IMG/VR virus record: IMGVR_UViG_3300025655_000033
Location: 3,202 to 67,201 of that record
Reading direction: 5' to 3' (one strand)
Length of the DNA: 64,000 nucleotides
Origin: a virus
Below, piece by piece: positions 1,816 through 52,334 of the stretch. Made by a program: the position numbers and the translations under genes. The notes under the pieces are model-generated. The model saw only the letters and a program-made list of their open reading frames with translations, was not told the DNA's origin and made no database searches. How positions within the stretch are numbered: position 1 is the first letter of the stretch; every line of letters begins with the position of its first letter.

Positions 1816-1819
1816 TTAA

Positions 1820-4972: not shown

Positions 4973-5007
4973 TACTAAATGTTTACAAAAATAAGTGATT
5001 ATAAATT

Positions 5008-6405: not shown

Positions 6406-6415
6406 ATTAAATTTT

Positions 6416-6874
6416 ATGTCAAAAGAATTAACGAAATCTGTAAAAGAAAAAAGACAAGAAATAATAGATTTAGAAAAATCACTAGTATCAATGGTTGGCA
6501 TGGCAGATGGAGTTTACTTAGGTGACAATCATAAGTATCCGCTAAAACATGTTTTTACAGAAGGATTATATTTAAGAGAGTTAAGATTAGAAGCAGGAAC
6601 AACAGCTATAGGTAAAATACATAAAGAAGATCATATAGTTTTTTTGCTTCATGGAACAGTAGCCGTAGCCACAGATAGCGGAGTTGAAGAGTACACTGCT
6701 CCTTGTTATATAAAATCTCCAGCTGGAATAAAAAGAGTTGCTCACGCTTTAACTGATATTATATGGGTTAACATTCACGCTAATCCTACTAACACTCAGG
6801 ATTTAGAAGAATTAGAAAACAATATAATAGCTAAAGATTATTTAGAATATGAAGAATTTAAAAAACTTAAATAA
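6416..6874 (+). CDS. Cupin-fold phage protein
   Basis: 'HVFTEGLYLREL..EAGT..IGKIHK.DH' cupin-like motif; position just before ejection genes. Confidence 0.6.
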   Translation: MSKELTKSVKEKRQEIIDLEKSLVSMVGMADGVYLGDNHKYPLKHVFTEGLYLRELRLEAGTTAIGKIHKEDHIVFLLHGTVAVATDSGVEEYTAPCYIKSPAGIKRVAHALTDIIWVNIHANPTNTQDLEELENNIIAKDYLEYEEFKKLK

Positions 6875-12100: not shown

Positions 12101-15100
12101 TAGATTCAGCTAGTGAAAAACTACTTGGTACCGCAACTGGTATTGCAAACTCAATACTTAAAAATCCAAAACTATACACTAAAGACTCAAGAATAAAAAA
12201 AGGAGCTGGATTATCGCCATTTGTTAAAAACAAAAACATAACCGGTGAAGACGTATTAAATGCAGTAGGAATAGTAGATGGTGAACCAAAACCAGGTATT
12301 GGACCTAGAACACCGGAAGGACAAGCTGTAAAAGGTGTACTAGCCATGTATGAGAAACTTGTTTCTAATTCCTTATTAAGACAAGAACTAATTGAACAAG
12401 GTGAATCATCTAATATTATTCAAGATATTGGAGCTGGTAAAGGAGATTTGATGTTTAGTATGTCATCAGAAGACATTAAACTATTAAATGAGTACGATAT
12501 AGATGGATACAAACTTGAATCAAAAGCAGACATTAATAAATATATATCTGATTTAAGAAAATTAATACCATTACTAAACACGGATGATTTTAAAATACTA
12601 AATGCCACAGTATTACAGTTTTCTAATTTAGACACAAAAGAGCTTGTAAAATATCTTCAAAGTGAATTAAAAAAACTAAGCAAGTCAAAAGAGTTAACTA
12701 GATTTGTTACTATAAGTAGAACTCCAGTTAGAAAACAATTTGGAAGTACTTTCGAAGAATTACAAGATAAGATACAAATACCAGGTTATGTAGAAGAATA
12801 CAATGACAAAAACTCATTAGTGTTTGAAAAAATGTGGTATACTATAAATGACATATTAAGTGATTCAAAAAATAAAGATTTAGCTGTACCTATAGTTACT
12901 TTCTTAGCTAATTCTCAAATTGAAAAAGCAAATCCGCATAGATTAGGAGCTCCATTAATAGCATATGAGTTATCTAGCGGTAGAATAGATAGTTACGAAC
13001 ACGCTATGCCTTCTGTTGAAGCTTATAGAAGATTAATAAAAGCTGCTTTAGATCCTAACATTGATTTCTTTAAAGAGTTTGACTTTGTAAAAAATAATTA
13101 CAAGCTCATGGCTATAACAAAAGAAACTGATTTAAAATTACTAGCTAATGGTAGTAATAGTTTCTTTGATCCTAAGTGGAAAAATTGGTGGCAAAGATAT
13201 TTTAACGACAAAGTAGCTAAAGATAAAGGTGGTATAGATCCTAATAATATAATTTCTATAGAAAACAAAATAAGTTTAGCTGAAGAATTTAATATTGATA
13301 AAGAAGGAAATGAAGATCTTGCTTTTAGTAAAAACTTAAACAGAGAATTTAACGATATACTTCAAACAACAACTGGTGTTGATTCTAAAAAAACATACAG
13401 TAAGATCGGTGCTGAAATGGCGGGATCTAAAAAAGGTAGGTTTGATTTCTTTATACCACCTGGAGCTGAAGACTTTATAGGTTTAATATACAAAACTTTA
13501 GGTAAAGGTGAAATAGGTGATATGCAATTAGCTTGGTACAAGAAAAACTTCTTTGATCCATACGCTAGAGCTATGGCTGCTGTTACTAAAGATAGAGTTG
13601 TAATGGCTCAGAAGTTTAAAGATCTTAGAAAAGAACTTAAGATAGTCCCTAAAAACTTAAGAAAAAAATTACCAGGAGAAGGTTTTACGCAAGAACAAGC
13701 TGTTAGAGTTTATATATGGACGAAACAGGGTGAAAAAATACCTGGTTTAAACGAAGGTGATTTAAGTACGTTAAATGACTACGTAAACAAAAATCCTGAA
13801 TTAAAAGAATTTGGTGACAGACTTATAGCTATAACTGGAAAAGATGCTTACGTTGGTCCAAGAGAAGGTTGGACTGCTGGTACTATAACTACAGATCTAC
13901 TAGATACTGTTAATGGTAGCAAGAGAGCAATGCATTTGGAGCAATGGCAAGACAATGTTGATGCTGTGTTTACCGAAGAGAACTTAAATAAACTAGAGGC
14001 ATTATACGGTAAGTCTTATAGAGTAGCATTAGAGAATATACTTAAAAGAATGAAGAGCGGTAGAAACAGATTGTTTACATCGGACTCTTTAACTGGTAGG
14101 TTTGTTGATTGGATTTCTAATTCAATTGGTAGTATCATGTTCTTTAACAGTAGATCTGCTATACTACAAACAATATCTTCTATTAACTTTATTAACTTTA
14201 CGGATAATAATATAATAGCCGCTAGTAAAGCATTAGCTAATCCAAAACAGTTTGCTTCAGACTTTATGACGCTTATGAACTCTGAGTTTCTAGTAGACAG
14301 ACGTAATGGTCTTAGAATAAATGTCAATGAAGCTGATATTGCCAACATTGCTGCTACATCTAAAAACAAAGCTAAAGCTTTTATAAGTGAAATGCTTAAA
14401 CTAGGTTTCTTACCTACCCAAATAGCGGACAGTTTTGCAATAGCTTCTGGTGGCGCAGCATTCTATAGAAACAGGATTAACACTTACTTAAAACAAGGGT
14501 TAAACGAAAAATCTGCAGAACAAAATGCTATGAGAGACTTTAGAGAAATTGCTGAAGAATCTCAACAATCCAGTAGACCAGATAAAATATCACAACAACA
14601 AGCTGGGCCATTAGGACGTATTATATTAGCTTTTGCCAACACACCAGCTCAGTATGCTAGAATTATTAAAAAAGCTGCCTTAGATCTTAAGAATGGACGA
14701 GGGGATAGAAAGACAAATATATCAAAGATAGTATACTATGGAGTAGCACAAAACTTATTGTTTAGTGCAATGCAAAATGCTTTGTTCGCTTTAATGTTTG
14801 ATGGAGATGATGACGAAGAAAAAGCAGAAGAAGAAAACAAGAAGTACGGTAGAGTTGCAAACAGTATGGCGGACAGTTTACTACGAGGTATGGGATTTGC
14901 TGGTGCTGTGACTTCTGTAGTTAAAAATGCTGCATTAAAAATAGTAGAAGAAAGCAACAAGGACATACCTAAGTATGAAAAAGCTGCTGCTGAATTAATA
15001 AAAATATCACCACCTATATCTTCTAAACTATCTAAAGTTGAATCAGCATTAAGATCAGCAAGCTGGGATAGAGATAAAATAAAAGAAGCAGGTTTAAGCA

Positions 15101-15369
15101 TAGACAATCCTGCTTATATGATTGGTGGAAAATTATCATCTGCAGCTCTTAACATACCACTAGATAGAGCGCTAACTAAAGTAGATAACATACAAAACGC
15201 TATGTCAAAAGAAACAGAAATTTGGCAAAAATTTGCGTTGTTGGCTGGTTGGCAATCTTGGGAATTAGGTATTGAAGACGAAGATGATAAAACTAAAAGA
15301 GGATCAACTAAAAGAAAAACATCAGAAAGAAAAACAGTTAAACGCAAAACAGTAAAAAGAAACAAATAA
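9115..15369 (+). CDS. Giant polyvalent internal virion protein (Gly/Ala hydrophobic region, HExxH zincin, sigma-region-2-like module, HNH-like motif, C-terminal helical domain)
   Basis: 2084 aa; HELLH at ~10936; 'LMRFDPTENNSLIGFINSQLK' at ~11600; 'YEHAMP' at ~12995; last gene of the ejection cluster. Confidence 0.7.
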   Translation: MNQIYINPETGEKFSVSSEKLDQFLQDFPNAVLEQEQEQPEEVVTEMFVNPDTEEQFKVSVNKKDQFLKDFPNAIPIDQAGKETSPTLDAVAGKDKASDMDLPLEDGLSELKEDDGQWDWGIVDYFSDLARAAKEGWRQGELADDAFEVINKGADVESKDILKFLKRQKEVGAKNIGSDEMRSWQKTYDKNGKSTWGAIKGILENPSVLSTLLVSSLSSQLSAIVNSGEVLASGVAGAAAGAGAGAAAGAIGGPLATLTAAGGALTGAMTGSMAAMETGLTFGELLQEQVGDDLNDDAIKEFLNDPERLADLKNKALKRGLTIGAIEGLTMGVAKGVGSKLAKAGFKKMAIGTATGVIEAGGGSLGEVGGRYVAGQEMDPGEIVFEGVAGFGGAPLTLASQASKLSKTIDKATINKIIKDTDYKDVTDAFKTADVGEAEINIAKIKNSTKILDEQVDSKVESADITEEEGNEIKLNFRKTQQAVNKISSLNFPKEEEVNAVSLLKEKETLENKIKEVGDSSLTTIESDRVDEINKSLSGIRLKQSISFAEKQGKKLGLDVEVLSQEEYDKKFGDKAKGSEGVWDKKNNSITINKDRALEVEAVSVGSHELLHGILSKGLKGKDASKIVEDFKNILSEEQKAVVDKRIKENYTQDYLDKNPDEYLTVFSDAITKKEIKFEENLFTKIGDFITPILRSVGFKNIKFNTGKDVYNFMREYQKSVATGELSKDIIKSVELKDTEASEGLATSITDNLNEKVDNLVGKKDESGNYQYKSKTEFQSSPEFVNVYDKIISGKMIDPLIRRGIEGDQVYGKPVENFIEEVKDGLTEVLMRFDPTENNSLIGFINSQLKFRKGDVLKKYKAQQTKSIDTAAGEVGSIAELEAEDTSEALLEESMAEERRQSDLIKAEEIIGSDDFVKAAKEEVASKLDQVKPGESTFKNVKGLVADTLAKEIGIPAKKIMDTTANMSSQEMGVSINWIKQNANMIAKIMPQGAVLDSASEKLLGTATGIANSILKNPKLYTKDSRIKKGAGLSPFVKNKNITGEDVLNAVGIVDGEPKPGIGPRTPEGQAVKGVLAMYEKLVSNSLLRQELIEQGESSNIIQDIGAGKGDLMFSMSSEDIKLLNEYDIDGYKLESKADINKYISDLRKLIPLLNTDDFKILNATVLQFSNLDTKELVKYLQSELKKLSKSKELTRFVTISRTPVRKQFGSTFEELQDKIQIPGYVEEYNDKNSLVFEKMWYTINDILSDSKNKDLAVPIVTFLANSQIEKANPHRLGAPLIAYELSSGRIDSYEHAMPSVEAYRRLIKAALDPNIDFFKEFDFVKNNYKLMAITKETDLKLLANGSNSFFDPKWKNWWQRYFNDKVAKDKGGIDPNNIISIENKISLAEEFNIDKEGNEDLAFSKNLNREFNDILQTTTGVDSKKTYSKIGAEMAGSKKGRFDFFIPPGAEDFIGLIYKTLGKGEIGDMQLAWYKKNFFDPYARAMAAVTKDRVVMAQKFKDLRKELKIVPKNLRKKLPGEGFTQEQAVRVYIWTKQGEKIPGLNEGDLSTLNDYVNKNPELKEFGDRLIAITGKDAYVGPREGWTAGTITTDLLDTVNGSKRAMHLEQWQDNVDAVFTEENLNKLEALYGKSYRVALENILKRMKSGRNRLFTSDSLTGRFVDWISNSIGSIMFFNSRSAILQTISSINFINFTDNNIIAASKALANPKQFASDFMTLMNSEFLVDRRNGLRINVNEADIANIAATSKNKAKAFISEMLKLGFLPTQIADSFAIASGGAAFYRNRINTYLKQGLNEKSAEQNAMRDFREIAEESQQSSRPDKISQQQAGPLGRIILAFANTPAQYARIIKKAALDLKNGRGDRKTNISKIVYYGVAQNLLFSAMQNALFALMFDGDDDEEKAEEENKKYGRVANSMADSLLRGMGFAGAVTSVVKNAALKIVEESNKDIPKYEKAAAELIKISPPISSKLSKVESALRSASWDRDKIKEAGLSIDNPAYMIGGKLSSAALNIPLDRALTKVDNIQNAMSKETEIWQKFALLAGWQSWELGIEDEDDKTKRGSTKRKTSERKTVKRKTVKRNK

Positions 15370-25061: not shown

Positions 25062-25109
25062 TTTTAAAGGAATTTAGTTATTATTATAATTACATATTTT
25101 TGCCTTAAT

Positions 25110-25874
25110 CTACAGATAGTCAATTACTTGCGATGGTTCTACGTTAGCAATTAACTTCTCTACAGCTTGCTTTTTAATCTCAGATATTCTAACGTAAGCA
25201 CTAGGTCCTTCGATGCCTAAAATATCTGCAATTTGATTTGCTGAATGCTTATCACAGTTTAATCCATAACTTAATCTAAGCACTTCAAACTCTCTTTCGT
25301 TTAAATGTTTTTTCAATAAACTAGTTAAGTATAAGTTTAATAAACCTATATTATATGGTTCAGACTGATCAGGTATTTGATGCATGGTGTTATCTTCATC
25401 ATCATCATTTATTTGCTCGTCAATACTAAGGAATATAGAATTAAAAAACATTGCAACCATTTTCTTATCTTTACCATTGTCTTTCCTAATTTCATTTAGT
25501 TTATGCTCTGGTATTCTAATATCTCCCCTGTTTATGTCTATGGCTCTTCTAATGGCTCCTTTTATTCGTTTAGACAGGAAAGACTTTAATGTTTTTTCCT
25601 CGTCTTCTGAGTTGTCTATTGTGTCCCATATTATTTTGTCAACAGCCTTAATCAATCCTAAACTTCCGTCTTGTATTAAATCTGTAATGTCCATAACACC
25701 GGAAGCTTGTTGTGATGTTGAAAACTTCCTTGCTATGTTTTCTACTAAAGGCAAGAACTTAATTACAAGTTCGTCTCTAGTATACTCGTTAAATGATTTT
25801 TCGCCGACACGTTCAATTGAAGACTTTACATCTTCTTTATATCGTACGTAATTCTGAATGTTGTACTTTTTCAT
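25110..25874 (-). CDS. Phage-encoded sigma-70 family RNA polymerase sigma factor
   Basis: Region 2 'LPLVENIARKF...DLIQDGSLGLIKAVDK...RIKGAIRRAI', 'IRIP', 'LSID', region 4 'LNEREFEVLRLSYGL...IADILG...VRISEIKKQAVEKL'. Confidence 0.9.
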   Translation of the reverse strand: MKKYNIQNYVRYKEDVKSSIERVGEKSFNEYTRDELVIKFLPLVENIARKFSTSQQASGVMDITDLIQDGSLGLIKAVDKIIWDTIDNSEDEEKTLKSFLSKRIKGAIRRAIDINRGDIRIPEHKLNEIRKDNGKDKKMVAMFFNSIFLSIDEQINDDDEDNTMHQIPDQSEPYNIGLLNLYLTSLLKKHLNEREFEVLRLSYGLNCDKHSANQIADILGIEGPSAYVRISEIKKQAVEKLIANVEPSQVIDYL

Positions 25875-26490
25875 ATCCGTTGTTTAATAGTTCCTTCTCT
25901 TTTTTGAGTTCATTGGTCATATTACGGTATATGGTTCTTGGTGTACAATTCAATTGTTTAGCTAAATTAGCTACTGTTATTTTATCACCGCAGTCGTTTA
26001 TATATAACATAACATCGTAGATGTCTGACTCGGTAATTTTTTTACTTCTTCCTACAAGTTGTCCTACAATACTTAGTTTATCTGACAAATCTAGTTTACA
26101 GTTATAATTAAATATAACTTTACGGGTCTTATTAGATGGATCTTGCTCTAAATCGCACATGCTTATTTCATACACGATTTTATTTAGTAAGTCATCATTT
26201 ACAGTAAATGTAACAAATCCATTTTTAATATTGCATATAAATTTAGATAAATTTAAAAAATTATCAGGATCAAGTTTTGGATTAAGATACCATAGAACTA
26301 ATAGATGCCACTTTAAAGACTTGTATGTATTGATCTTAGCTTTACTTCTAAATAGATCATAACACTCTCTGGTACCCTGTTCATAAAACCAACCCCACTC
26401 ATAAGTTGAAGTTGGTTTATCTTTAACTGGTAACCTTCTGTAAAGTATTCTGCTTCGATGTAAATAATCGAGACGACGTTCGTATGACAT
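25837..26490 (-). CDS. DNA-binding protein with C-terminal helix-turn-helix (candidate regulator or replication initiator)
   Basis: 'ITVANLAKQLNCTPRTIYRNM' HTH; start codon lies inside a dyad element. Confidence 0.65.
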   Translation of the reverse strand: MSYERRLDYLHRSRILYRRLPVKDKPTSTYEWGWFYEQGTRECYDLFRSKAKINTYKSLKWHLLVLWYLNPKLDPDNFLNLSKFICNIKNGFVTFTVNDDLLNKIVYEISMCDLEQDPSNKTRKVIFNYNCKLDLSDKLSIVGQLVGRSKKITESDIYDVMLYINDCGDKITVANLAKQLNCTPRTIYRNMTNELKKEKELLNNGYEKVQHSELRTI

Positions 26491-26528
26491 TAGCCTATTA
26501 CCCCTTTATATTAACTACCTATTGTCAC
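26484..26528. promoter_or_regulatory. Dyad element copy 1 (TGACAWTAG...CTAWTGTCA)
   Basis: ATGACATTAGCCTATTACCCCTTTATATTAACTACCTATTGTCAC; inverted relative to copies at 33088 and 34731. Confidence 0.75.
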
Positions 26529-28428: not shown

Positions 28429-28460
28429 TGTGTTTGTTTTAATTGTTATATAATTATTAT

Positions 28461-28934
28461 CTAGCTTATTGCGTATTGATTTTGTAATTTGTATCTATTG
28501 TTTTCTACAGTATTTTTAGAAATATGCTTAGCGCTTATGTCTTCTTTCTTTTGTTCAAGTACAGCTATAGTATTTTTTAATTCTAATATTCTATCATTTA
28601 TCTCGTTGATAGTTTTAACTTCTTGAACCTCAGATACATATATGTTTTCTACTTTTCTGTATAATTCCTCTATATCTCTTTCGTATGGTAATTCATGTTC
28701 AAAGTTTTTTACACTGTGCAATACAGTTGCATGATCTTGACCCATACTTTTAGCTATTGCAGAACAACCTGCCGTAGAATAATCCATACATAATTTATAG
28801 TAAACCCAACGTAGCATTTTGTATTCACGCTTACGTGTATTTACTTTGTATGAGTACTCACCAGCTTCGTCTAGTATTTTATAGTAGAAGTAGTTTAGTA
28901 TTTTTTTATTTGATGGTGTGATTCTTGGTGTCAT
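28461..28934 (-). CDS. DnaA C-terminal (domain IV)-like DNA-binding protein
   Basis: 'R...Y.L..DY...SAIAKSMGQDHATVLHSVK' matches the DnaA domain IV signature (RDHTTVLHA). Confidence 0.75.
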   Translation of the reverse strand: MTPRITPSNKKILNYFYYKILDEAGEYSYKVNTRKREYKMLRWVYYKLCMDYSTAGCSAIAKSMGQDHATVLHSVKNFEHELPYERDIEELYRKVENIYVSEVQEVKTINEINDRILELKNTIAVLEQKKEDISAKHISKNTVENNRYKLQNQYAIS

Positions 28935-28944
28935 ATTTTTGTCT

Positions 28945-29205
28945 TTAATCTAATAATATCATGTAAGCTTCTGCGTTTGAATGCCTAAACCAGTCTAGTC
29001 CTTTTCTAAATTCAGAGTCTATTTTTTTATTAGACTTACGCATTTCAATTAACCATTGAGCACCGAGTATAAAATCATACATAGACAATTCGTTGTTGTT
29101 TAATTCCGCTTCTGCTCCTGTAAAAGGATTTTTAACAGTATCACCAGTTGTGTATACTGTGCCTTTAAACCATTTGGGTAAACCCATTTTTTCTTTTGTT
29201 TTCAT
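28945..29205 (-). CDS. Hypothetical protein
   Basis: 86 aa ORF in the early/middle operon. Confidence 0.65.
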   Translation of the reverse strand: MKTKEKMGLPKWFKGTVYTTGDTVKNPFTGAEAELNNNELSMYDFILGAQWLIEMRKSNKKIDSEFRKGLDWFRHSNAEAYMILLD

Positions 29206-29207
29206 AA

Positions 29208-29555
29208 TTAAAATTTGTGTGACATTTGATTATTTACATACCACTCATTCCATAAGTATTCCCAACTGTCGCTGTCGTCGTCTAATTCGCATGCGTCAAG
29301 TATGTATTGATCAACATATATATCAGATCCTAAATTAATAGCGGATTCAATTTCAGATTGGAGCATAGCAGCTTCCAAGTATATATCTCTATCAGGTATA
29401 ATATTACCCCAATCAGCTTGATCCATAGCTACATATATATCATGACCGTCTGCTGTCATTATTGATTCAAAAGATACATCATATCCAACTCCACCGTGCT
29501 CGGTATCAATTGTTGATCCTGATTTTTCAAGTACTAGTTTTTTGTAATGTGACAT
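29208..29555 (-). CDS. Acidic hypothetical protein
   Basis: 115 aa, Asp/Glu-rich. Confidence 0.6.
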   Translation of the reverse strand: MSHYKKLVLEKSGSTIDTEHGGVGYDVSFESIMTADGHDIYVAMDQADWGNIIPDRDIYLEAAMLQSEIESAINLGSDIYVDQYILDACELDDDSDSWEYLWNEWYVNNQMSHKF

Positions 29556-29658
29556 AATTTAAAATATTAAGTTAAACATTGATTTAAATACTACAAACAC
29601 AAGTAGTATTACATTCATAATTATCCAGGCCATTATTATTTTTTCTATTGGTCTCATA

Positions 29659-30264
29659 TTAATGGTATATTAGTCCGACTTTATTAGTCTTATTAAACCA
29701 TCTGGTTGCATATAGATCATTCTCAGATGCATTAGCATAACCAGCAGCAACTAATTCGTCTGCGGTTTTAAAGATCTCTGTATGACGATCTATGGACTTG
29801 TCTATAAGATCGACTTGCTTGCCTGAATTGCTAAATATAAAGTCATAGTTATTAGGTATATCGGCTTTTTTAACCATGTCGATCATATTGGTATAACTAT
29901 AAAAATTTACTTGTGGATTTTGCTTTGCAATTTGAAACCACTTAGCTAAATACTCACGTGAATAATAATCACCGCTGTCGTGCACTCGTACAAACTTAGG
30001 TTTTTTGCGCTGTATCTCGGCGTGTATAGCACTTATGAAGTCGTCTGTTTTACTGAGCTCATAACGTTTCTCGAACGCAGGCTTAACATTACCCCATATG
30101 TACGCGCCTTTACGCGCATAACAGAACTTAATACAACCATCTGCCATAGGACAAATAACTCTACCTGTTATACTTTTGTAAGCTGGTAGGCCAAAGTTAA
30201 CTACTTTAACACCCATAAGCTTGCTAGTCTTTTTTAATTTACCGTTTTGTGTTAATAACTGCAT
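29659..30264 (-). CDS. Gp88-like radical-SAM-related phage protein
   Basis: 'CPMADGCIKFCYA' Cys cluster, 'VRVHDSGDYY', 'FYSYT'. Confidence 0.75.
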   Translation of the reverse strand: MQLLTQNGKLKKTSKLMGVKVVNFGLPAYKSITGRVICPMADGCIKFCYARKGAYIWGNVKPAFEKRYELSKTDDFISAIHAEIQRKKPKFVRVHDSGDYYSREYLAKWFQIAKQNPQVNFYSYTNMIDMVKKADIPNNYDFIFSNSGKQVDLIDKSIDRHTEIFKTADELVAAGYANASENDLYATRWFNKTNKVGLIYH

Positions 30265-30584
30265 AATACTTCTTGTAACTTATTTGTTAATTCATCTATA
30301 AAATCAGATGGCTCTGTTTTACCGCCGATACTCCATGTTGTTAGATCTTTTTTAGTATAGCTTTCACTGTATGTTTTCCAATCGTACAATGTATACATAT
30401 TATCATTGAACTCAAATACCCATTCGTATTGAACTTTGCCATCACCTGAATCATCTGGTGAATAAGTTGGTGCGCCAAAGACAAGTATTAGATCATTGTA
30501 GTAGTAGCCGTGTAATGAACCTACTTTGTGAGTGCCATGTGTTGCTGATCTCCAGTCGGATTCGTGTTTAGTTAGTTTTTTCAT
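30252..30584 (-). CDS. Hypothetical phage protein
   Basis: 110 aa; 'FG.P....DGKV..EW...TLYDWK...WSIGG'. Confidence 0.65.
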   Translation of the reverse strand: MKKLTKHESDWRSATHGTHKVGSLHGYYYNDLILVFGAPTYSPDDSGDGKVQYEWVFEFNDNMYTLYDWKTYSESYTKKDLTTWSIGGKTEPSDFIDELTNKLQEVLCSY

Positions 30585-30585
30585 G

Positions 30586-30774
30586 TTACCAAGTTTTAGT
30601 TAAATGTGTGTTATAGTATTGCTTTAATGTTTTGTTGAATAAATCCATTGCAGCATTGTCTGTTTCTTTGATTAAATCTTTATCGTAAAGCATTTCTAAT
30701 AACTGCTCGCTAACAAAGTCACATGTTAACTCATAAAGATCACTAGATAATTCTTGATACAGTTGCTTGTTCAT
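30586..30774 (-). CDS. Hypothetical early protein
   Basis: 62 aa ORF directly downstream of a promoter motif. Confidence 0.6.
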   Translation of the reverse strand: MNKQLYQELSSDLYELTCDFVSEQLLEMLYDKDLIKETDNAAMDLFNKTLKQYYNTHLTKTW

Positions 30775-30815
30775 AGTTATAATATTTAATTGTTATACAT
30801 ATATTATCGTTAGTG

Positions 30816-31046
30816 CTACGTATTATTTTTGCAATACTTTTCTTCATAAGCTAATAAGTATTCAATTTGCTCTTTAATATCACGGAACTTTCTTTTTACC
30901 TGATAGATCAATGGACCTTGGTGGTATGGATTGTCTTGATTAGTTTTAAATCTTACGTACTTGGTTTTAGGGTAGATACCTGCCCATTTACCGTTTGATA
31001 GTGTTACGTATATATTACCTTTTTTTGTTACTTTAGTTATTTCCAT
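30816..31046 (-). CDS. Hypothetical early protein
   Basis: 76 aa ORF. Confidence 0.6.
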   Translation of the reverse strand: MEITKVTKKGNIYVTLSNGKWAGIYPKTKYVRFKTNQDNPYHQGPLIYQVKRKFRDIKEQIEYLLAYEEKYCKNNT

Positions 31047-31300
31047 AATTATTTTATCTTGTTTTTGCGTGTGTATAGCACTTGTAATAGATCTGAAGCT
31101 TTATACATATCTAACTTTTCGTTAGTGTCTCGCTTGTGATCTACTAGTAAATGCAAGCCATCTATTAATGAGTCTAGTTGTTCTGAGTTAAAAAATAAGT
31201 TCATCTTCGTCTTCGTTATAAAATTCAGCGTGTTCTTTGCAGTCGGAGCAAATATCCGTTTCAAACCATGGCGATGCGCCACAACAGTTACTTTCCATAA

Positions 31301-31600
31301 TTAATCTTTTAAATATTTACGTAATTCTCTATCTTCTACTTGTAATAAGAAATCCCACAATAAATTATAAAAATCTTCCATATTATCCCATTCACATTCG
31401 TCGTGGATAAAATTCCACTTATCAGATAATGGTACGCCAACATATCTTTCTATAGTTTCTTTATCAAAGTGAAAATCATATGTTATCTTTAGGTATATAT
31501 CTCTTAACACTTCGTCAGCGTCATTGAAGGATAACCATTTTAATAAATGTCTTTTTAATATTTTTCGTTCTTCGTTATTTAATAAAATTTCTTTAGTCAT
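31301..31600 (-). CDS. Hypothetical early protein
   Basis: 99 aa ORF downstream of promoter motif at 31629. Confidence 0.6.
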   Translation of the reverse strand: MTKEILLNNEERKILKRHLLKWLSFNDADEVLRDIYLKITYDFHFDKETIERYVGVPLSDKWNFIHDECEWDNMEDFYNLLWDFLLQVEDRELRKYLKD

Positions 31601-31925
31601 AATTATATTGTTTTAATTATTATACATATATTATCTTAGGTGCTACGTATTATTATTGTAAATTAGCAAGGATCATTTCTACTAGAAAATATGCGCCTGA
31701 TATTATAGCTGAGGTTGCAGCGACAAATAGTACGCATGACCACGTGTATAGCATAGCGTTAGTTATCTTATTCTTCATCTTGTATTTCTTTTATTATATC
31801 TGTTAATTCTTCTAAGTTATTTAAATGGTAGTGTGAATGGTATTCATCACCTAGTTTAATAGTGGTATCTATTAAGTCATTATACTCTGATCCAGTGAAC
31901 CAGATTTCTATGTTTAATTTCTTTG

Positions 31926-32195
31926 TTAACATGACGCCCAACCTATAAAGTGATATTTATCTTCTGTTTCAAAGTACACACACTCGCGTTTGCTTATTTT
32001 ATCTAAAGCATCATCGTAGTGCTCATCGCTTTCGGGTTCTTTAATTTCGCCTGATAAACTGCATGTAGCTATAGTGCCAGAGTAAGGATCGTGGCCATAC
32101 TCATATACTGCGTCTTCTACTAGTTCTCTAAACGCTTGCTTTGCGCTTTCATAATTCTTTTTTAATACTGATTGGTGAAAGGATGTTGCTCCCAT
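31926..32195 (-). CDS. Hypothetical early protein
   Basis: 89 aa; 'YEYGHDPYSGTIAT', 'FIGWASC'. Confidence 0.65.
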   Translation of the reverse strand: MGATSFHQSVLKKNYESAKQAFRELVEDAVYEYGHDPYSGTIATCSLSGEIKEPESDEHYDDALDKISKRECVYFETEDKYHFIGWASC

Positions 32196-32214
32196 AGTTA
32201 TATTATTTTAAGTG

Positions 32215-32376
32215 TTAGAAATAATCTTGTCTAATAAAGTTATTAATTATATTGTGTACTTTAATTTGATTAGTTAAAGCTAATGAGTTAAACTCTTCAT
32301 CGTGTTTCCAATTCTTTAAGTCGCTTTTATCTTGCCACTTAGTGTAAATCTTGCGTGCGATTTCTTGATTTGTCAT
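32215..32376 (-). CDS. Hypothetical early protein
   Basis: ORF from MTNQEIARK with TAACT-ATG start context. Confidence 0.5.
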   Translation of the reverse strand: MTNQEIARKIYTKWQDKSDLKNWKHDEEFNSLALTNQIKVHNIINNFIRQDYF

Positions 32377-32383
32377 AGTTATA

Positions 32384-32560
32384 TTATTTAGTATTGTTAT
32401 CAAGTGCTCCGTTATAAAATTCTTCTTCAAGTATATTAACTATTGCTTCCATAGCTAATACTGCTTCGTATGGCGTAGCATAAGGTGTATTCTCATACGC
32501 TATAGCTACTTTACCTATAGATTCTATTATTTGTTCTTCAGTCATAGGACACTGTCTCAT
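32384..32560 (-). CDS. Hypothetical 58-aa early protein
   Basis: Hand-translated MRQCPMTEEQIIESIGK... Confidence 0.5.
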   Translation of the reverse strand: MRQCPMTEEQIIESIGKVAIAYENTPYATPYEAVLAMEAIVNILEEEFYNGALDNNTK

Positions 32561-32718
32561 AGTTTATTTATTTTATTAGATAAAGCGTATGCATCTAGTG
32601 CTTGCTCTATAATATTTATAATTTCTAATTTACTTGCATTATTTTCTTGTGCTTTATATAATATATAGCGTATATCACTGATTAATTCTTCAGTTTCTGT
32701 AAGATTTTTAGTGGACAT
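32557..32718 (-). CDS. Hypothetical 53-aa early protein
   Basis: Hand-translated MSTKNLTETEELISDIRY...; ATGA coupling. Confidence 0.5.
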   Translation of the reverse strand: MSTKNLTETEELISDIRYILYKAQENNASKLEIINIIEQALDAYALSNKINKL

Positions 32719-32720
32719 AG

Positions 32721-32924
32721 TTATTTAATGTATGTTAGTGATAAAAATGCGGCGGATATAAAGGTTAAGCCATTGTAGTTAAACCACTCGCGAACTGCAG
32801 AATCTTTTGCTACTTCGGCGAAATTATTAGGTAAGTTAGATACAGTGAAACCTATGTAACGCTTGCGATTTGAGCGTATTAGAGGTAATTTAGAGATTTT
32901 AGTAGTTTTAATAGTTAAAGACAT
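32721..32924 (-). CDS. Hypothetical early protein
   Basis: 67 aa ORF downstream of promoter motif at 32962. Confidence 0.55.
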   Translation of the reverse strand: MSLTIKTTKISKLPLIRSNRKRYIGFTVSNLPNNFAEVAKDSAVREWFNYNGLTFISAAFLSLTYIK

Positions 32925-33087
32925 AGTTATATATTTTAAGTTATTAATTAATGTATATTTATATTATCAATACTATAACGTATTATTATTGTAATGAAGG
33001 TGGTTTATTATTTATTAATAGAGAAGGGTAGAGGGATATAATACTCTGTCTCTCTACGCAGAGATATAATTCTCCTTACAGAAAAGT

Positions 33088-33131
33088 GTGACATTAGCTA
33101 GTTAAATAGTAGGGTAACAGGCTATTGTCAC
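33088..33131. promoter_or_regulatory. Dyad element copy 2
   Basis: GTGACATTAGCTAGTTAAATAGTAGGGTAACAGGCTATTGTCAC. Confidence 0.75.
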
Positions 33132-33238
33132 CCCTTTAATTTGTCTAGTGATTTCTCTAATTCCATTATATATTCCACTAACTCGTTTTTATCCCACTCC
33201 ATTAGTGCTGAGTATTCGCTTAAGATCATTGCTTGCAT
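33128..33238 (-). CDS. 36-aa early peptide
   Basis: MQAMILSEYSALMEWDKNELVEYIMELEKSLDKLKG, ~20 nt downstream of promoter motif at 33259. Confidence 0.5.
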   Translation of the reverse strand: MQAMILSEYSALMEWDKNELVEYIMELEKSLDKLKG

Positions 33239-33308
33239 AATTATTTATTTTATATATATATTATCTTATGGTGTACGTATTATTTTTGTTGAGCGCAAGT
33301 GTATAGCA

Positions 33309-33539
33309 TTAAGAGATAATTTCCCTTAACGCTACTGGAACACTTGTTGAAGAAGTATAGCTTTTATATTTAATAAAGCAAGGCATCACTTCGAGTTTCG
33401 CTTGCATAATTTTATACGCTTCGTCGTGATTGTAAGTTACTTCTTTTCCACTTTTGAATTTCACTTTAATAATAGTGTTAGAGCCAATAAGTGATTTTCT
33501 AATTAAGAATCTTTTTGAGTTTAAAGTTGAATTTTGCAT
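33309..33539 (-). CDS. Early protein, paralog 1
   Basis: 76 aa, close paralog of 34040..34282. Confidence 0.75.
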   Translation of the reverse strand: MQNSTLNSKRFLIRKSLIGSNTIIKVKFKSGKEVTYNHDEAYKIMQAKLEVMPCFIKYKSYTSSTSVPVALREIIS

Positions 33540-33773
33540 AGTTATTTAATTTAAGTTATTAATTATTATTTTTTAGTTACATATATATTATCTTGTAGCG
33601 AACGTATTATTTTTGTCGAGCGTAGCGAAGTGCTATACACGCCTGGCTGCGTTAACTATATTGCATGACGGAGTCTACTCTTCCGACGCTATTTCAAAGT
33701 CAGGCCTTATATATTATCTTAGTAGCAGCGTATTACTTTTGTAATCAAACGCTCCTGTAGAGTTTGTGAGGTC

Positions 33774-33953
33774 CTATTTAAAAGACCTCAACCATTCTGA
33801 AATACCATCATAGTATTCCTTCATTACAGGTGACTCAGCACATGTATAATAAGGTTTAGAGAACATTGCTTTAGTTTCTCTACCTAGAGCATTACTATAG
33901 GTTATAGAGTAATAGTTTGATCTTGGATTGTCGGTGATTTTAAATGGTATCAT
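33774..33953 (-). CDS. 59-aa early protein
   Basis: Hand-translated MIPFKITDNPRSNYYSITY...; directly downstream of promoter motif at 33971. Confidence 0.55.
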   Translation of the reverse strand: MIPFKITDNPRSNYYSITYSNALGRETKAMFSKPYYTCAESPVMKEYYDGISEWLRSFK

Positions 33954-34039
33954 AATTATTTATTTGTATATATTATCTGAAGTTAAACGTATTCTTTTTG
34001 TAACCAATTGCGCCTGTTCGCGCTGTGAGGTGTTAAGTA

Positions 34040-34282
34040 CTAAGAGACTGATTTGTCCCTTAGCACTGTTGGTATTGAAGTACTTGATGTATATGATTTG
34101 TATTTGATGAAGCATGGCATTGTATCAAGCTTGTCCTTCATGATTTCATATGCTGCATCATGGTTGTATTCATATTGCTTACCTGATTTGAATGTGACTT
34201 TGATGATCGTGTTTGTACCGATTAGAGATTTTCTGATTAAGAATCTTTTGCTTTCCATAACTTTTTGAGTTGAATTTGACAT
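34040..34282 (-). CDS. Early protein, paralog 2 (first gene of the leftward arm)
   Basis: 80 aa; shares SKRFLIRKSLIG...MPCFIKYKSYTSSTS with 33309..33539. Confidence 0.75.
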   Translation of the reverse strand: MSNSTQKVMESKRFLIRKSLIGTNTIIKVTFKSGKQYEYNHDAAYEIMKDKLDTMPCFIKYKSYTSSTSIPTVLRDKSVS

Positions 34283-34730
34283 AATTGTTTGATTTAAATT
34301 TATATTAATTATTAATTATTTATTATATATATATTATCTATATGCAAGCGTATTTTTTTTGTTCGCAGTCAAAATGCTCAACAATACTCGTGAGGTTGCT
34401 TCGCTGCTTACATATATATTATCTACTCGCAAGCGTATTTATCTTGTAACGCACATACTGGAATCAAAACGCGCAGTAATAGTCGTGAGGTTGTTTGTCA
34501 ACTAGTATATCTCCAGGAAAAAAGCTAAAAGCTAGGGGTATTTCAACGTAAAAGGCAAAACATAAAACGCAAATCATATAAAACACGGGGATCCCGGTCA
34601 TTTTGAAACGCAAAAGGTTTTTGATTGATGTTGTAGAAAAGTAGGGGTAACACCCTACTCCTATATTTGTTACAACTTTTTTACTCTACTCCTATATTTC
34701 TAACAATTTTTTTTTAAAAAATAAAAAACT

Positions 34731-34774
34731 ATGACATTAGGCTGTTATATTAATGGGTAATAGGCTATTGTCAC
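34731..34774. promoter_or_regulatory. Dyad element copy 3
   Basis: ATGACATTAGGCTGTTATATTAATGGGTAATAGGCTATTGTCAC. Confidence 0.75.
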
Positions 34775-34808
34775 ACTGTAAAATACGATGCTTTCGTGTG
34801 AATATATA
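34773..34808 (+). promoter_or_regulatory. Rightward variant of the promoter motif
   Basis: AATACG-N10-GTGAATATATA, 25 nt upstream of the first rightward ORF. Confidence 0.55.
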
Positions 34809-34832: not shown

Positions 34833-34928
34833 ATGGCAGCAAACTTAGGAAACGAGGCAGTTACAGAGATGTATTTAGGAAGCGAGACGGTTACAGCTGT
34901 GTATTTAGGTACAGAACAAGTATTATAA
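34833..34928 (+). CDS. 31-aa peptide of (Y)LG repeats, tail-fibre accessory-like
   Basis: MAANLGNEAVTEMYLGSETVTAVYLGTEQVL; 30-bp internal repeat. Confidence 0.6.
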   Translation: MAANLGNEAVTEMYLGSETVTAVYLGTEQVL

Positions 34929-41994: not shown

Positions 41995-42045
41995 TTAAAA
42001 ACCCATTAAACCAAGTAATAATAATATATAACTAACAAAAAATAA

Positions 42046-50373: not shown

Positions 50374-50456
50374 AACGCAGTATCAAGATTATTTTTATTA
50401 CTTAAAAAAACTAAAAAATACGTAATCTTATAACTATTAACAATAAACCAAAACCA

Positions 50457-50777: not shown

Positions 50778-52334
50778 ATGTCAGACGCAATTGTCAAGAA
50801 CCTAAGTTTCGGTAACGAAGCTAAGGACAAAGTATTTGAAGGTATTACAAAACTCACAAAAGCCGTTAGCTCCACGCTCGGGGCTAGCGGTAAATGTGTG
50901 ATGCTAGAAGATGGAAATGGAAGACCAATCATAACTAAAGACGGTGTAACAGTAGCAGATAGTATTATACTATTAGATCCTGTTGAAAATATGGGGGCTA
51001 CACTTTTAAAAGAAGCTGCTAGAAAAACCGTAAGTGAAGCGGGGGACGGTACAACAACCGCAACTGTATTAGCACACGCTATATTAACTGAAGCTTACAA
51101 TGTAGCTGATAAGATTAGCTCAAGAGATTTAAAAATCGGTATAGACAACGCTGTTGAGAAAGTAGTTAAATACTTAGAATCAATTTCAGTTAATATACAA
51201 GGAGATATGATAGATCAAATAGCTACTATATCTACTAACAACGATGCAGAACTTGGTAAATTAATTGGTGATGCTTTTAGATCTGTTGATGAAACAGGTG
51301 TAGTTATGATGGAAACATCGTCAGATGGTACTACAGCAGTAGAAATAGTTGACGGAGTACAATACAACAAAGGGCTAACGAACTCACATTTTGTTACAAG
51401 CAAAAGCCAAAGAGTTGCTGAATTAGAAAATCCTTATGTATTATTAGTTGAATCACCAATTGATAATATAAGACAAATTCAAAGCGTGCTAGAGTTTGTT
51501 ATAAAAGGTAATAAGTCTTTACTTGTAATCGCGGACGTAGACCAACCAGTACTTGCAACTTTAGCAATGAATAAAGTCAAAGGTAATTTAAAGATTAATG
51601 TTATCAATGCGCCAACATACGGTGTAGCTAAAAAAGAAACATTAGATGATCTTGCAATGCTAACTGGTGCTACTATTATAAACGAAGACTTAGGAGATGA
51701 TTTAGATTTAATTAATCCTCAATACCTAGGTAATTGTATAAAAAGTGTAACTACAGACGAAGAAACAATATTACAAGTTGGAGAAGTTTCAGAAGAGGTT
51801 CAAAATACTATAAAAGGTATTAAAGAAAAACTTGTTACAACTAAAGAGCCTTACGAAATAGTAAAGCTTGAAAAAAGATTAGCAAGACTAGCAGCTAAAA
51901 TAGCTATAGTAAAAGTAGGTGCTAATTCAGAAATAGAATTAAAAGAAAAGAAAGATAGAGTTGAAGATGCTATCTGCGCAACTAAAGCCGCAATCAAAGA
52001 AGGTATTGTACCTGGTGGTGGAATTGCCCTGTTAAACGCATCGGAAACAGTTAAAGCTAATACAATAGGTGAAGAAGCGCTGCTAGAGGCTATTAAGGCG
52101 CCATTTAAGACCATTTTAGAAAATGCAAGTATAGAATACCAAGAATCTAAAAGAGGCAAAGGAATGGGTTTAAATGTGATAACTGGTAAAAAGGTTAATA
52201 TGATCAAACACGGGATTATTGATCCACTACTAGTTACTAAAAGTGCACTTAGAAACGCTGCTTCAGTTGCTACAACTATTTTATCTACGGATTGTGTAAT
52301 TAATAACTTAAGGATTAATGAAGGCAATAGGTAG
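50778..52334 (+). CDS. groEL: Phage-encoded chaperonin GroEL
   Basis: 'ITKDGVTVA','AGDGTTTATVLA','EKKDRVEDA','GIVPGGG','GIIDP..VT'; no GGM tail. Confidence 0.95.
   Translation: MSDAIVKNLSFGNEAKDKVFEGITKLTKAVSSTLGASGKCVMLEDGNGRPIITKDGVTVADSIILLDPVENMGATLLKEAARKTVSEAGDGTTTATVLAHAILTEAYNVADKISSRDLKIGIDNAVEKVVKYLESISVNIQGDMIDQIATISTNNDAELGKLIGDAFRSVDETGVVMMETSSDGTTAVEIVDGVQYNKGLTNSHFVTSKSQRVAELENPYVLLVESPIDNIRQIQSVLEFVIKGNKSLLVIADVDQPVLATLAMNKVKGNLKINVINAPTYGVAKKETLDDLAMLTGATIINEDLGDDLDLINPQYLGNCIKSVTTDEETILQVGEVSEEVQNTIKGIKEKLVTTKEPYEIVKLEKRLARLAAKIAIVKVGANSEIELKEKKDRVEDAICATKAAIKEGIVPGGGIALLNASETVKANTIGEEALLEAIKAPFKTILENASIEYQESKRGKGMGLNVITGKKVNMIKHGIIDPLLVTKSALRNAASVATTILSTDCVINNLRINEGNR

What the first reader, a model, noticed from the sequence alone, without database searches (positions are those of the whole stretch)
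28455..34447. Ten-copy promoter motif with fixed spacing that does not match the host consensus
Seen: minus-strand RCA-N5-AATACG-N10-GATAATA in 10 copies, all leftward, seven of them within 32.9-34.5 kb. The N10 spacer varies in sequence but never in length. Known: Bacteroidota housekeeping promoters use TTTG / TAnnTTTG. Inference: a phage-specific promoter class on the first-expressed genes that needs a phage factor at entry. The motif also delimits one-gene cassettes that could be shuffled by recombination.
Basis: partly seen in the sequence, partly recalled or inferred. Interest (0 to 1): 0.75.

Follow-up and report, generated by a model that had tools for sequence, protein, structure and literature searches.

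The report
Phage-specific early promoter motif, ten copies
Ten near-identical promoter-like signals head the small leftward genes of an uncultured flavobacterial phage, are shared by hundreds of related phage genomes that carry their own sigma factor, and look nothing like the host's normal promoters, so how this phage starts transcription is an open, testable question.

Summary
The window holds ten exact leftward copies, against 0 in 100 shuffles. The spacing is fixed.

The full motif is TTACAA-N4-AATACG-N10-GATAATAT. A purine lies 7 nt after GATAAT in 10 of 10 copies. I call this motif class L.

- **Spread.** Class L is not private to this phage. All 41 long IMG/VR relatives examined carry 1-19 copies, always on one strand.
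- **Link to sigma.** Of the 27 near-complete relatives, 25 also encode a homologue of the window's sigma factor (25110-25874, minus strand). Five cultured relatives lack both.
- **Gene order.** The sigma gene is the last gene of the class-L-driven block. A second conserved motif follows it at once: class R, TAAA-N15-GTRATWAT. Class R also heads the rightward late operons.
- **Host promoters.** Host-type TAHHTTTG boxes are almost absent upstream of genes. They precede 4 of 519 ORFs in six clade genomes, against 14 of 61 in the sigma-less relative.

Best reading: class L is a phage-specific early promoter class in a cascade from class L to sigma to class R. What reads class L at time zero is unresolved. 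No virion RNA polymerase was found. The cassette idea is partly supported.

The parts
34417..34447 (-). Class L copy 1; predicted start near 34411. No ORF of 30 aa or more before the next copy.
34332..34362 (-). Class L copy 2; predicted start near 34326. Heads the 80-aa ORF 34040-34282.
33971..34001 (-). Class L copy 3; predicted start near 33965. Heads the 59-aa ORF 33774-33953, which ends in a 9-bp hairpin.
33712..33742 (-). Class L copy 4; predicted start near 33706. Followed by about 90 nt of non-coding sequence, then copy 5.
33586..33616 (-). Class L copy 5; predicted start near 33580. Heads the 76-aa ORF 33309-33539, a paralogue of the 80-aa ORF.
33259..33289 (-). Class L copy 6; predicted start near 33253. 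Heads the 36-aa ORF 33128-33238.
32962..32992 (-). Class L copy 7; predicted start near 32956. Heads seven small ORFs, 32924 down to 31653.
31629..31659 (-). Class L copy 8; predicted start near 31623. Heads the ORFs from 31600 down to 30816.
30802..30832 (-). Class L copy 9 (GCA in place of ACA); predicted start near 30796. Heads six ORFs, including the GP88-family 201-aa protein and a 157-aa protein with a DnaA-C-like HTH.
28455..28485 (-). Class L copy 10; predicted start near 28449. Heads nine ORFs that end with the 217-aa HTH protein and the sigma factor.
25110..25874 (-). Phage sigma-70-family factor, 254 aa, with regions 2 and 4. It is the last gene of the class-L-driven block.
25837..26490 (-). 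217-aa protein with a C-terminal helix-turn-helix. It overlaps the sigma gene. A same-strand ORF ending at the sigma start was recovered in 23 distinct forms among 44 related loci examined.
25079..25112 (-). Class R motif just after the sigma stop and before the Erf gene (GTAATTATAATAATA; weak upstream TAGA).
34779..34806 (+). Class R motif (TAAA-N15-GTGAATATA) at the head of the rightward block, 5 nt after an inverted-repeat element.
41996..42023 (+). Class R motif upstream of the 1063-aa tail-fibre-like gene.
50403..50430 (+). Class R motif upstream of the 96-aa ORF and GroEL.
4976..5003 (+). Class R motif upstream of the 465-aa virion protein gene.
34732..34773 (.). Inverted-repeat element TGACAwTAG...CTAwTGTCA at the divergent control region.
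33089..33130 (.). Second copy of the inverted-repeat element, inside the early region.
26485..26527 (.). Third copy of the inverted-repeat element. Its arm holds the start codon of the 217-aa gene.

Best explanation
The ten copies are promoters of one phage-specific class, here called class L. They start the leftward early transcripts of a flavobacterial podophage.

**Anatomy (read on the minus strand)**
- TTACAA lies at about -38 to -33.
- AATACG(A) lies at about -28 to -22.
- GATAAT lies at -12 to -7.
- A purine start lies 7 nt further on.
- The layout resembles a promoter of a sigma-70-family holoenzyme (a -10-like hexamer 7 nt before a purine), though the upstream hexamer lies 20 nt away rather than the usual 16-18. 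The letters are not those of the host primary sigma.

**What the promoters drive**
- Six copies close to the divergent control region drive very short units of one ORF or none.
- Four distal copies drive operons.
- The last operon ends with a 217-aa HTH protein and the phage's own sigma factor.

**Cascade**
- A second motif, class R (TAAA-N15-GTRATWAT), begins right after the sigma gene.
- Class R also heads the rightward late operons.
- I therefore read the programme as a cascade: class L comes first, sigma is made from it, and sigma-holoenzyme then uses class R.

**Shown**
- The motif, its strict geometry and its orientation.
- Its spread through a large uncultured clade.
- Its co-occurrence with sigma.
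- The absence of host-type boxes upstream of genes.
- The order class L, then sigma, then class R.

**Inferred**
- That class L sites are start sites.
- That they act first.
- That sigma reads class R rather than class L.

**Unresolved**
- What recognises class L before sigma exists.
- My odds are about 0.4 for a phage factor brought in with the DNA and about 0.4 for weak or non-canonical recognition by a host holoenzyme.
- The rest goes to sigma itself acting in a feedback loop.
For: **Motif and geometry**
- Ten exact copies against 0 in shuffles.
- Purine at the predicted start in 10 of 10 copies and in 99% of 323 family instances.
- N10 spacing in 256 of 260 occurrences with spacers of N9 to N11. 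TACAA-N4 in 157 of 161.
- 245 of 256 family copies are followed within 150 nt by an ORF of 30 aa or more.

**Orientation**
- All copies lie on one strand in each of 41 of 41 related records.
- Relative to sigma, 243 copies lie upstream on the same strand, 13 downstream and 1 antisense.

**Link to sigma**
- A sigma homologue is present in 25 of 27 near-complete motif-bearing records. The two exceptions carry their motifs at a contig end, pointing off the contig.
- Five cultured relatives have no exact copy. They show 4 one-mismatch hits against 3 control hits, and none has a Sigma70_r2 domain.

**Not host type**
- TAHHTTTG lies within 70 nt upstream of 4 of 519 ORFs in six clade genomes, against 14 of 61 in MW202828.1.
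- The window has no co-oriented intergenic TTG-N17-21-TAnnTTTG.
- There is no positional enrichment of such boxes upstream of sigma.

**Class R**
- It follows the sigma stop in all six genomes read in full and, by my reading of the printed sequences, in most of the 80 related loci.
- It gives 37 hits in 16 of 18 complete clade records, against 6 control hits.
- It gives 1 hit against 4 control hits in the five sigma-less relatives.

**Variation**
- L357 and L359 have sigma 84-85% identical to the window's, with the same region-4 helix. Yet they use GGTTGACACGA-N9-GATAAT and have no TTACAA.
- The upstream blocks are therefore probably not read by sigma region 4.
Against: - No start site has been mapped. 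The only RNA data available were assembled contigs, which cannot show starts.
- Co-occurrence of sigma with class L is equally what one expects if sigma reads class L.
- GATAA is the core of the sigma-28 -10 element (recalled). Sigma-28 is the best solved match of the phage sigma (1rp3, E 1.9e-8).
- A sigma gene placed downstream of its own promoters is usual for autoregulated alternative sigmas.
- In L402 a host-type TATATTTG box stands where class R stands in other genomes. Class R is therefore not indispensable at that place.
- Both motif classes are restricted to the sigma clade, so comparative data cannot say which one sigma reads.
- The co-occurrence is phylogenetically confounded, because it contrasts one clade with outgroups.
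Confidence: 0.5

Rival explanations
1. Class L is the cognate promoter of the phage sigma factor. A little sigma is made by leaky host transcription, or sigma arrives with the virion, and it then drives its own block in a positive loop. Class R would need sigma together with the 217-aa HTH protein, or some other reader.
For: - Sigma and class L occur together in 25 of 27 near-complete records, and neither occurs in 5 of 5 cultured relatives.
- Copies lie upstream of sigma and in the same direction: 243 against 13 and 1.
- The -10-like GATAAT shares GATAA with sigma-28 promoters (recalled), and sigma-28 is the best PDB match of the phage sigma.
- GATAAT stays constant across lineages, as does sigma region 2.
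Against: - No host-type promoter upstream could supply the first sigma.
- The upstream blocks change between lineages whose sigma region-4 helix is identical.
- Class R, placed right after sigma and at late operon heads, would be left without a reader.
Confidence: 0.25
2. Class L is read at entry by a factor carried in the virion, either an RNA polymerase or a specificity factor, as in N4 or crAss-like phages.
For: - The genome appears to lack host-type promoters altogether.
- The structural-gene order matches crAss-like phi14:2: GroEL, terminase, portal, and then very large virion proteins at the end of the block.
- phi14:2 early genes are transcribed by a virion polymerase (passages of bioRxiv 10.1101/2020.03.07.982082).
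- The sigma-less relative MW202828.1 also has a non-host motif before its early genes, 14 copies of a 16-bp palindrome.
Against: **The 2084-aa protein**
- It has no PDB sequence match.
- BLASTP against gp66 gives a best E of 0.69.
- It has no conserved DxDxD. FDGDDD is not kept in 30 homologues.
- A model of its last 885 residues is helical. Mean pLDDT is 61, and no match is better than E 0.085.

**Other points**
- No PF00940 match turned up in six frames, but that search had no positive control.
- The motif geometry is that of a sigma-type promoter.
Confidence: 0.15
3. Class L sites are strong early promoters read by an unaided host holoenzyme. They would carry a phage-own signature, as T4 early promoters do in E. 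coli (recalled).
For: - GATAAT has the A at position 2 and the T at position 6 that are typical of -10 hexamers.
- Cellulophaga RNA polymerase transcribed the sigma-70-type T7 A1 promoter in vitro (figure legend and methods of bioRxiv 10.1101/2020.03.07.982082).
- The copies cluster at the head of the early region.
Against: - The -10-like block lacks T-8, T-6 and G-5 of the nearly invariant TAHHTTTG (PMC6847099).
- The upstream hexamer lies 20 nt away, not 17 nt as in the phi14:2 host-type promoters.
- The motif is absent from cultured relatives that infect the same bacterial family.
- In bacterial chromosomes it gives only scattered single hits.
Confidence: 0.08
4. The sites are not promoters. 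They would be binding sites of a regulator, or recombination sites that bound mobile cassettes.
For: - Homology breakpoints cluster at the motif: 9.7% lie within 25 nt, against 3.4% expected, n=754.
- Two cassettes were duplicated as whole units.
Against: - The motif is asymmetric and strictly one-stranded.
- It keeps a fixed distance to a conserved purine, and start codons follow within about 50 nt.
- Breakpoints are expected at any conserved island that lies between variable genes.
Confidence: 0.02

Closest known systems
Bacteroidota primary-sigma promoters (-33 TTTG / -7 TANNTTTG)
   Same: - The likely host group is the same.
- The overall frame is the same: an upstream element about 20 nt before a -12/-11 start of the downstream element.
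- The leaders are A-rich and lack a Shine-Dalgarno sequence.
   Different: - The letters differ. The motif has GATAATAT in place of TAHHTTTG and TTACAA in place of TTTG.
- It carries an extra invariant block, AATACG(A), in the spacer.
- It is far more conserved than host promoters.
Promoter classes of phage-encoded sigma factors, such as SPO1 gp28 and phiEco32 gp36 (recalled, not searched here)
   Same: - The motif is highly conserved and lineage-specific.
- It occurs together with a phage sigma gene.
- The transcription programme is a cascade.
   Different: - In those phages the earliest promoters are host-type, and the sigma gene lies behind a host promoter.
- Here no host-type promoter is seen, and the motif lies upstream of the sigma gene itself.
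Sigma-28 / FliA promoters, TAAA-N15-GCCGATAA (consensus recalled)
   Same: - The GATAA core is present in the -10 block of class L.
- TAAA-N15 spacing is present in class R.
- The phage sigma's best solved relative is FliA.
   Different: - Class L has no GCC before GATAA.
- Its upstream element is TTACAA at a different distance.
- Neither class reproduces the whole consensus.
T4 MotA-dependent middle promoters (recalled)
   Same: The layout is tripartite: a -10 hexamer, plus a conserved box at a fixed short distance in the -30 to -22 region.
   Different: - No MotA or AsiA homologue was looked for.
- An upstream -35-like hexamer is also conserved here.
- The position in the genome suggests early rather than middle genes.
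crAss-like phage phi14:2 transcription (bioRxiv 10.1101/2020.03.07.982082, passages read)
   Same: - The host is a Flavobacteriaceae member.
- The order of structural genes is similar, and giant virion proteins are present.
   Different: - phi14:2 early transcripts have no common upstream motif, and a gp66 polymerase makes them.
- Its middle and late promoters are host-type.
- Here the early motif is very strong, host-type boxes are missing, a sigma is encoded, and no gp66-like protein is detected.
T7-type single-subunit polymerase promoters (sequence recalled)
   Same: The 7-mer AATACGA of the family consensus is identical to part of the T7 promoter. The conservation is high.
   Different: - The motif is split by a variable N9-10 spacer.
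- It ends in a -10-like hexamer 7 nt before the start.
- No single-subunit polymerase gene was found (a search without a positive control).

Membership tests
Bacteroidota primary-sigma (sigma-ABfr) promoter | -7 element TANNTTTG/TAHHTTTG, with T-12, A-11, T-8, T-7, T-6 and G-5 nearly invariant (PMC6847099) | tested here: not met
   None of the 10 copies holds TTTG on the transcribed strand. GATAATAT shares only A-11 and T-7, or 3 of 6 positions if shifted by two.
Bacteroidota primary-sigma (sigma-ABfr) promoter | -33 element TTTG/TTG about 20 nt upstream of the TA | tested here: not met
   TTACAA occupies that place. The phi14:2 host-type promoters read TTGnnn-N17-TAnnTTTG.
Sigma-70-family holoenzyme promoter (general) | -10-like hexamer with A at position 2 and T at position 6, and a purine start 6-8 nt downstream | tested here: met
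   GATAAT is present in 10 of 10 copies. A purine lies 7 nt after it in 10 of 10 and in 99% of 323 instances. Actual starts are not mapped.
Sigma-70-family holoenzyme promoter (general) | -35 element 16-18 nt upstream of the -10 hexamer | tested here: not met
   TTACAA lies 20 nt upstream, and AATACG lies 10 nt upstream.
Promoter class of a phage-encoded sigma | The phage encodes a sigma, and the motif occurs only where that sigma occurs | tested here: met
   - There is one Sigma70_r2 gene in the record.
- 25 of 27 near-complete motif-bearing records have a homologue.
- 0 of 5 cultured relatives have either.
- The test is confounded by phylogeny.
Promoter class of a phage-encoded sigma | The sigma gene is expressed from a different, earlier promoter | tested here: not met
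   Only class L lies upstream of sigma. There is no enrichment of host-type boxes there.
Promoter class of a phage-encoded sigma | Initiation at the motif by core plus the phage sigma | not testable with these tools
   This needs in vitro transcription or reporter assays.
Sigma-28/FliA promoter | TAAA-N15-GCCGATAA (recalled) | tested here: inconclusive
   - The GATAA core is present.
- The three bases before it are not conserved: G 0.44, T 0.56 and mixed.
- TAAA-N15 is found in class R, not in class L.
Virion RNA polymerase early transcription (crAss-like gp66 type) | Large virion protein with a conserved DFDxD/DxDxD catalytic motif | tested here: not met
   The only DxDxD in any ORF of 250 aa or more, apart from sigma, is FDGDDD at residue 1896 of the 2084-aa protein. 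It is not conserved in 30 homologues.
Virion RNA polymerase early transcription (crAss-like gp66 type) | Two double-psi beta-barrel fold | tested here: inconclusive
   The model of residues 1200-2084 is helical but of low confidence (pLDDT 61), and no match is better than E 0.085. Residues 1-1199 were not folded.
T7-type promoter | A single-subunit RNA polymerase gene in the genome | tested here: inconclusive
   There is no PF00940 match at E of 1 or less in six frames, but nothing rang in the controls either. No polymerase family was found among the large ORFs scanned.
T4 MotA-type middle promoter | MotA-like activator and AsiA-like co-factor encoded by the phage | not tested
   No search was made for these proteins.

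The most novel reading that the evidence does not exclude
This phage clade runs its whole transcription programme without host primary-sigma promoters and without a polymerase of its own. A specificity factor, possibly the sigma itself, would be delivered with the DNA and would turn host core polymerase to class L at time zero. Class R would take over later.
Probability: 0.15. Interest if true: 0.85.

Novelty: new variant of a known kind. Interest (0 to 1): 0.6.

Why it matters
- **Reach.** The motif marks a very large clade of aquatic flavobacterial phages with no cultured member found in the phage collection. The sigma search scored 8000 candidate proteins and all 8000 passed E 1e-8. No similar sigma was found in the cultured-phage collection; the only match was in a Synechococcus phage.
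- **Use.** It gives a simple sequence handle for finding the early region and its direction in such genomes.
- **Open question.** If these genomes truly hold no host-type promoter, then how the first transcript is made in a Bacteroidota host becomes a sharp question. Three purified components could answer it.
- **Gene turnover.** The early region behind the motif is hypervariable. The motif therefore also frames where new host-takeover genes enter these phages.

Tried and rejected
**Expression data**
- Public RNA runs held only small shares of the stretch (0.05-0.11) and were kept as contigs. Laying four of them showed pieces of relatives over most of 28.0-34.7 kb. It gave no starts, ends or strands, so it says nothing about start sites.

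**Other RNA readings**
- Rfam found nothing in the window at gathering thresholds.
- The non-coding stretches after copies 4 and 1 do not fold better than shuffles (z +1.08 and -0.64). I dropped the small-RNA idea.

**Generic scans**
- The sigma-70 consensus scan found no excess: 48 sites against 43 expected.

**Giant protein**
- There was no tblastn match in cultured phages and no PDB sequence match.

**The 217-aa protein**
- A profile search against PDB gave nothing below E 0.029.
- Foldseek gave nothing below E 0.32, although several weak rows were sigma factors.
- VIA-align found only a generic three-helix HTH (Z 5.8 over 41 residues).
- I therefore do not call it a sigma.

**Covariation**
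- No change in the recognition helix of sigma or of the HTH protein goes with the lineage variants of the motif.

**Distant sigma clades**
- Two distant representatives, 37% and 47% identical, gave no loci in the virus collection. The test of which motif follows sigma in a sister clade could not be done.

**Host counterpart of sigma**
- The sigma was not found with this query in five Flavobacteriaceae genomes. That search had no positive control.

**Rightward TATATTTG box at 34664**
- Relatives mostly read TATATCTAAC or similar at that place, so I do not count it as a conserved host-type promoter.

**Closed or failed**
- Supplementary file 1 of the phi14:2 preprint, which lists its promoters, could not be seen. 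I read the four middle promoters from the genome instead.

**Literature**
- Four searches gave no paper that describes this motif. That covers only the held library.

Full report
**1. The observation**

None of 100 shuffles gave a match. A one-mismatch search adds nothing. The whole 67.2-kb virus record holds no further copy.

Aligned on the minus strand, the ten copies give ttACAAaAatAATACGyt-N7-AGATAATATATAT. Position 7 after GATAAT is a purine in all ten. In eight copies an ATG that opens an ORF follows 20-45 nt later. Copies at 33712 and 34417 are followed by non-coding sequence and then the next copy.

**2. Where it sits**

The record is a podovirus-like genome.
- A rightward block runs from about 34.9 kb. 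It holds tail proteins, GroEL, a GroES-like protein, terminase, portal, virion proteins and a 2084-aa protein.
- A leftward block runs from about 34.3 kb down to 15.9 kb.
- The leftward block starts with small ORFs of no known family. It then passes through a 217-aa HTH protein and a sigma factor (25110-25874).
- That sigma shows Sigma70_r2 at E 5e-7, region 4 just under cut-off, and TIGR02937 at 60.7 bits.
- The block goes on to Erf, an exonuclease, primase-helicase, thymidylate synthase, MazG and ribonucleotide reductase.

All ten copies lie in the first 6 kb of the leftward block. The six copies nearest the divergent region head one ORF or none. The other four head 7, 3-4, 6 and 9 ORFs, and the last group ends with sigma.

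**3. The motif is a family trait**

- The 323 unique instances in those loci give tTACAAa.taAATACGA-N9-GATAATA. ACAA is kept at 89-98% (95-98% for the first three letters), although most extra instances were not selected for it. The purine after GATAAT is kept at 99%.
- In 41 long records every one has 1-19 copies, always on a single strand. The reversed control gives 0.
- In 80 loci fetched through the sigma protein rather than the motif, the spacer is N10 in 256 cases, N9 in 3 and N11 in 1. 243 copies lie upstream of sigma on its strand, 13 downstream and 1 antisense.
- Eight of the 55 loci with at least 6 kb upstream have no exact copy. Seven of these carry lineage variants: GGTTGACACGA-N9-GATAAT, TTACAA-N4-AAAATAAT..., or GATATTA as the last block.

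**4. It is not the host's promoter**

- The host group is inferred from relatives. Terminase and portal are closest to an uncultured Caudoviricetes record (MW202828.1), then to phages of Flavobacterium, Cellulophaga, Tenacibaculum and Maribacter.
- The Bacteroidota consensus is -33 TTTG and -7 TANNTTTG, with six nearly invariant positions (PMC6847099, passages).
- I read the four mapped host-type middle promoters of phi14:2 from its genome. They are TTGnnn-N17-TAnnTTTG.
- Class L has none of these letters.
- In the six clade genomes I read in full, a TAHHTTTG box lies within 70 nt upstream of 4 of 519 ORFs. In the sigma-less relative MW202828.1 the figure is 14 of 61.
- In bacterial genomes the motif gives mainly single hits. 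Of the 80 rows shown, 7 hold two or more matches. Six are MAG contigs of 3.7 kb or less, and one is a 117-kb MAG contig.

**5. Link to sigma, and a second motif**

- A sigma homologue is present in 30 of the 41 records, and in 25 of the 27 that are at least 90% complete. The two exceptions have their motifs at a contig end.
- Five cultured relatives have no exact copy and no Sigma70_r2.
- Right after the sigma stop, all six genomes read in full and most of the 80 related loci carry a second conserved motif. Its full form is TGTAAA-N15-GTAATTATAwTAATA.
- The same motif stands at the head of the rightward block, 5 nt after a conserved inverted repeat, and before several late genes.
- As TAAA-N15-GTRATWAT it gives 37 hits in 16 of 18 complete clade records, against 6 control hits. 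In the five sigma-less relatives it gives 1 hit against 4 control hits.
- MW202828.1 instead has host-type boxes before late genes. It has 14 exact copies of the palindrome GTGTCGTTAACGACAC in its early block.

**6. What reads class L**

- The order class L, then sigma, then class R, together with the lack of any other promoter before sigma, makes a cascade the simplest reading. That leaves class L without an identified reader at time zero.
- I looked for a virion polymerase in the 2084-aa protein.
  - It has no PDB sequence match.
  - It shows no similarity to gp66.
  - It has no conserved DxDxD.
  - It carries a HELLH metalloprotease-like motif and a Gly/Ala-rich hydrophobic stretch.
  - The model of its last 885 residues is helical, of low confidence, and without a match.
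- No T7-like polymerase domain was found (a search without a positive control).
- The sigma's best solved relative is FliA. Class L shares GATAA with the recalled FliA consensus, and class R shares TAAA-N15, so this does not decide between them.
- Lineages with the same sigma region-4 helix use different upstream blocks. This argues against region 4 reading those blocks.
- The 217-aa neighbour of sigma has a generic HTH. Its recognition helix does not vary with the motif. The conserved inverted repeat is a more likely target for it, but that is only inference.

**7. Cassettes**

- The early region from 27 to 34.5 kb aligns only with the nearest relative. The region from the 217-aa gene leftwards aligns with 60-108 of the 200 loci.
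- The 76-aa and 80-aa units are duplicates over promoter, leader, ORF and end hairpin.
- Some ORF ends carry 9-bp hairpins (z -2.7).
- Homology breakpoints lie within 25 nt of a motif centre in 9.7% of 754 cases, against 3.4% expected. The cases are not independent, and any conserved island between variable genes would attract alignment ends.

**8. Verdict**

The motif is real, strongly non-random and widely conserved. It is very probably an early promoter class that is specific to a sigma-bearing clade of flavobacterial phages. I found no description of it in four literature searches.

Noticed in passing
window 25079-25112 (-), 34779-34806, 41996-42023, 50403-50430 and 4976-5003 (+): A second conserved promoter-like motif, TAAA-N15-GTRATWAT(A). 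It stands directly after the sigma gene and at the heads of late operons. It is specific to the sigma-bearing clade.
   Followed up: yes
window 26485-26527, 33089-33130 and 34732-34773: Three copies of a conserved inverted repeat, TGACAwTAGnnn-N~18-nnnCTAwTGTCA. One holds the start codon of the 217-aa HTH gene. One lies 5 nt before the rightward class R motif. The element is conserved in relatives.
   Followed up: partly
L009 (MW202828.1), record 43.7-55.2 kb: The sigma-less relative has 14 exact copies of the 16-bp palindrome GTGTCGTTAACGACAC before its leftward genes. It has host-type TAnnTTTG boxes before its late genes.
   Followed up: partly
six clade genomes (G000, G001, G007, G010, G018, G026): Host-type TAHHTTTG boxes precede only 4 of 519 ORFs. 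My rough estimate of chance is about 3 per genome, which suggests avoidance.
   Followed up: partly
window 9115-15369 (+): A 2084-aa virion-block protein with a HELLH motif near residue 608 and a Gly/Ala-rich hydrophobic stretch at 230-400. Its C-terminal 885 residues are conserved in more than 4400 proteins. Some homologues carry Zeta-toxin/AAA_33 or DUF6934 domains.
   Followed up: partly
window 34656-34716 (+) and 34640-34664: Two direct repeats, TACTCCTATATTT(G/C)T(T/A)ACAA, next to a hairpin GTAGGGGTAACACCCTAC, plus a GGGGATCCCC-like GC box further left. Similar elements occur in the divergent region of relatives.
   Followed up: no
window 34833-34928 (+): A 31-aa ORF made of two tandem units of the type ...V..(M/V)YLG(S/T)E.V..., just before the 84-aa ORF that is conserved in 31 related loci.
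   Followed up: no
G000 record 1-127 and 66247-66373: The first 127 bases of the record recur exactly 955 bases before its end, inside the 390-aa gene. The last 330 bases open an ORF that runs off the record. The ends probably reflect assembly, not true termini.
   Followed up: no
window 50778-52334 and 57010-57615 (+): The phage encodes a GroEL and a GroES-like protein, as do phi14:2 and MW202828.1.
   Followed up: no
G010 record 807-6521 and 64571-70419: This related record repeats about 6 kb of its early region at both ends. Its 19 motif copies are therefore about ten distinct sites.
   Followed up: no
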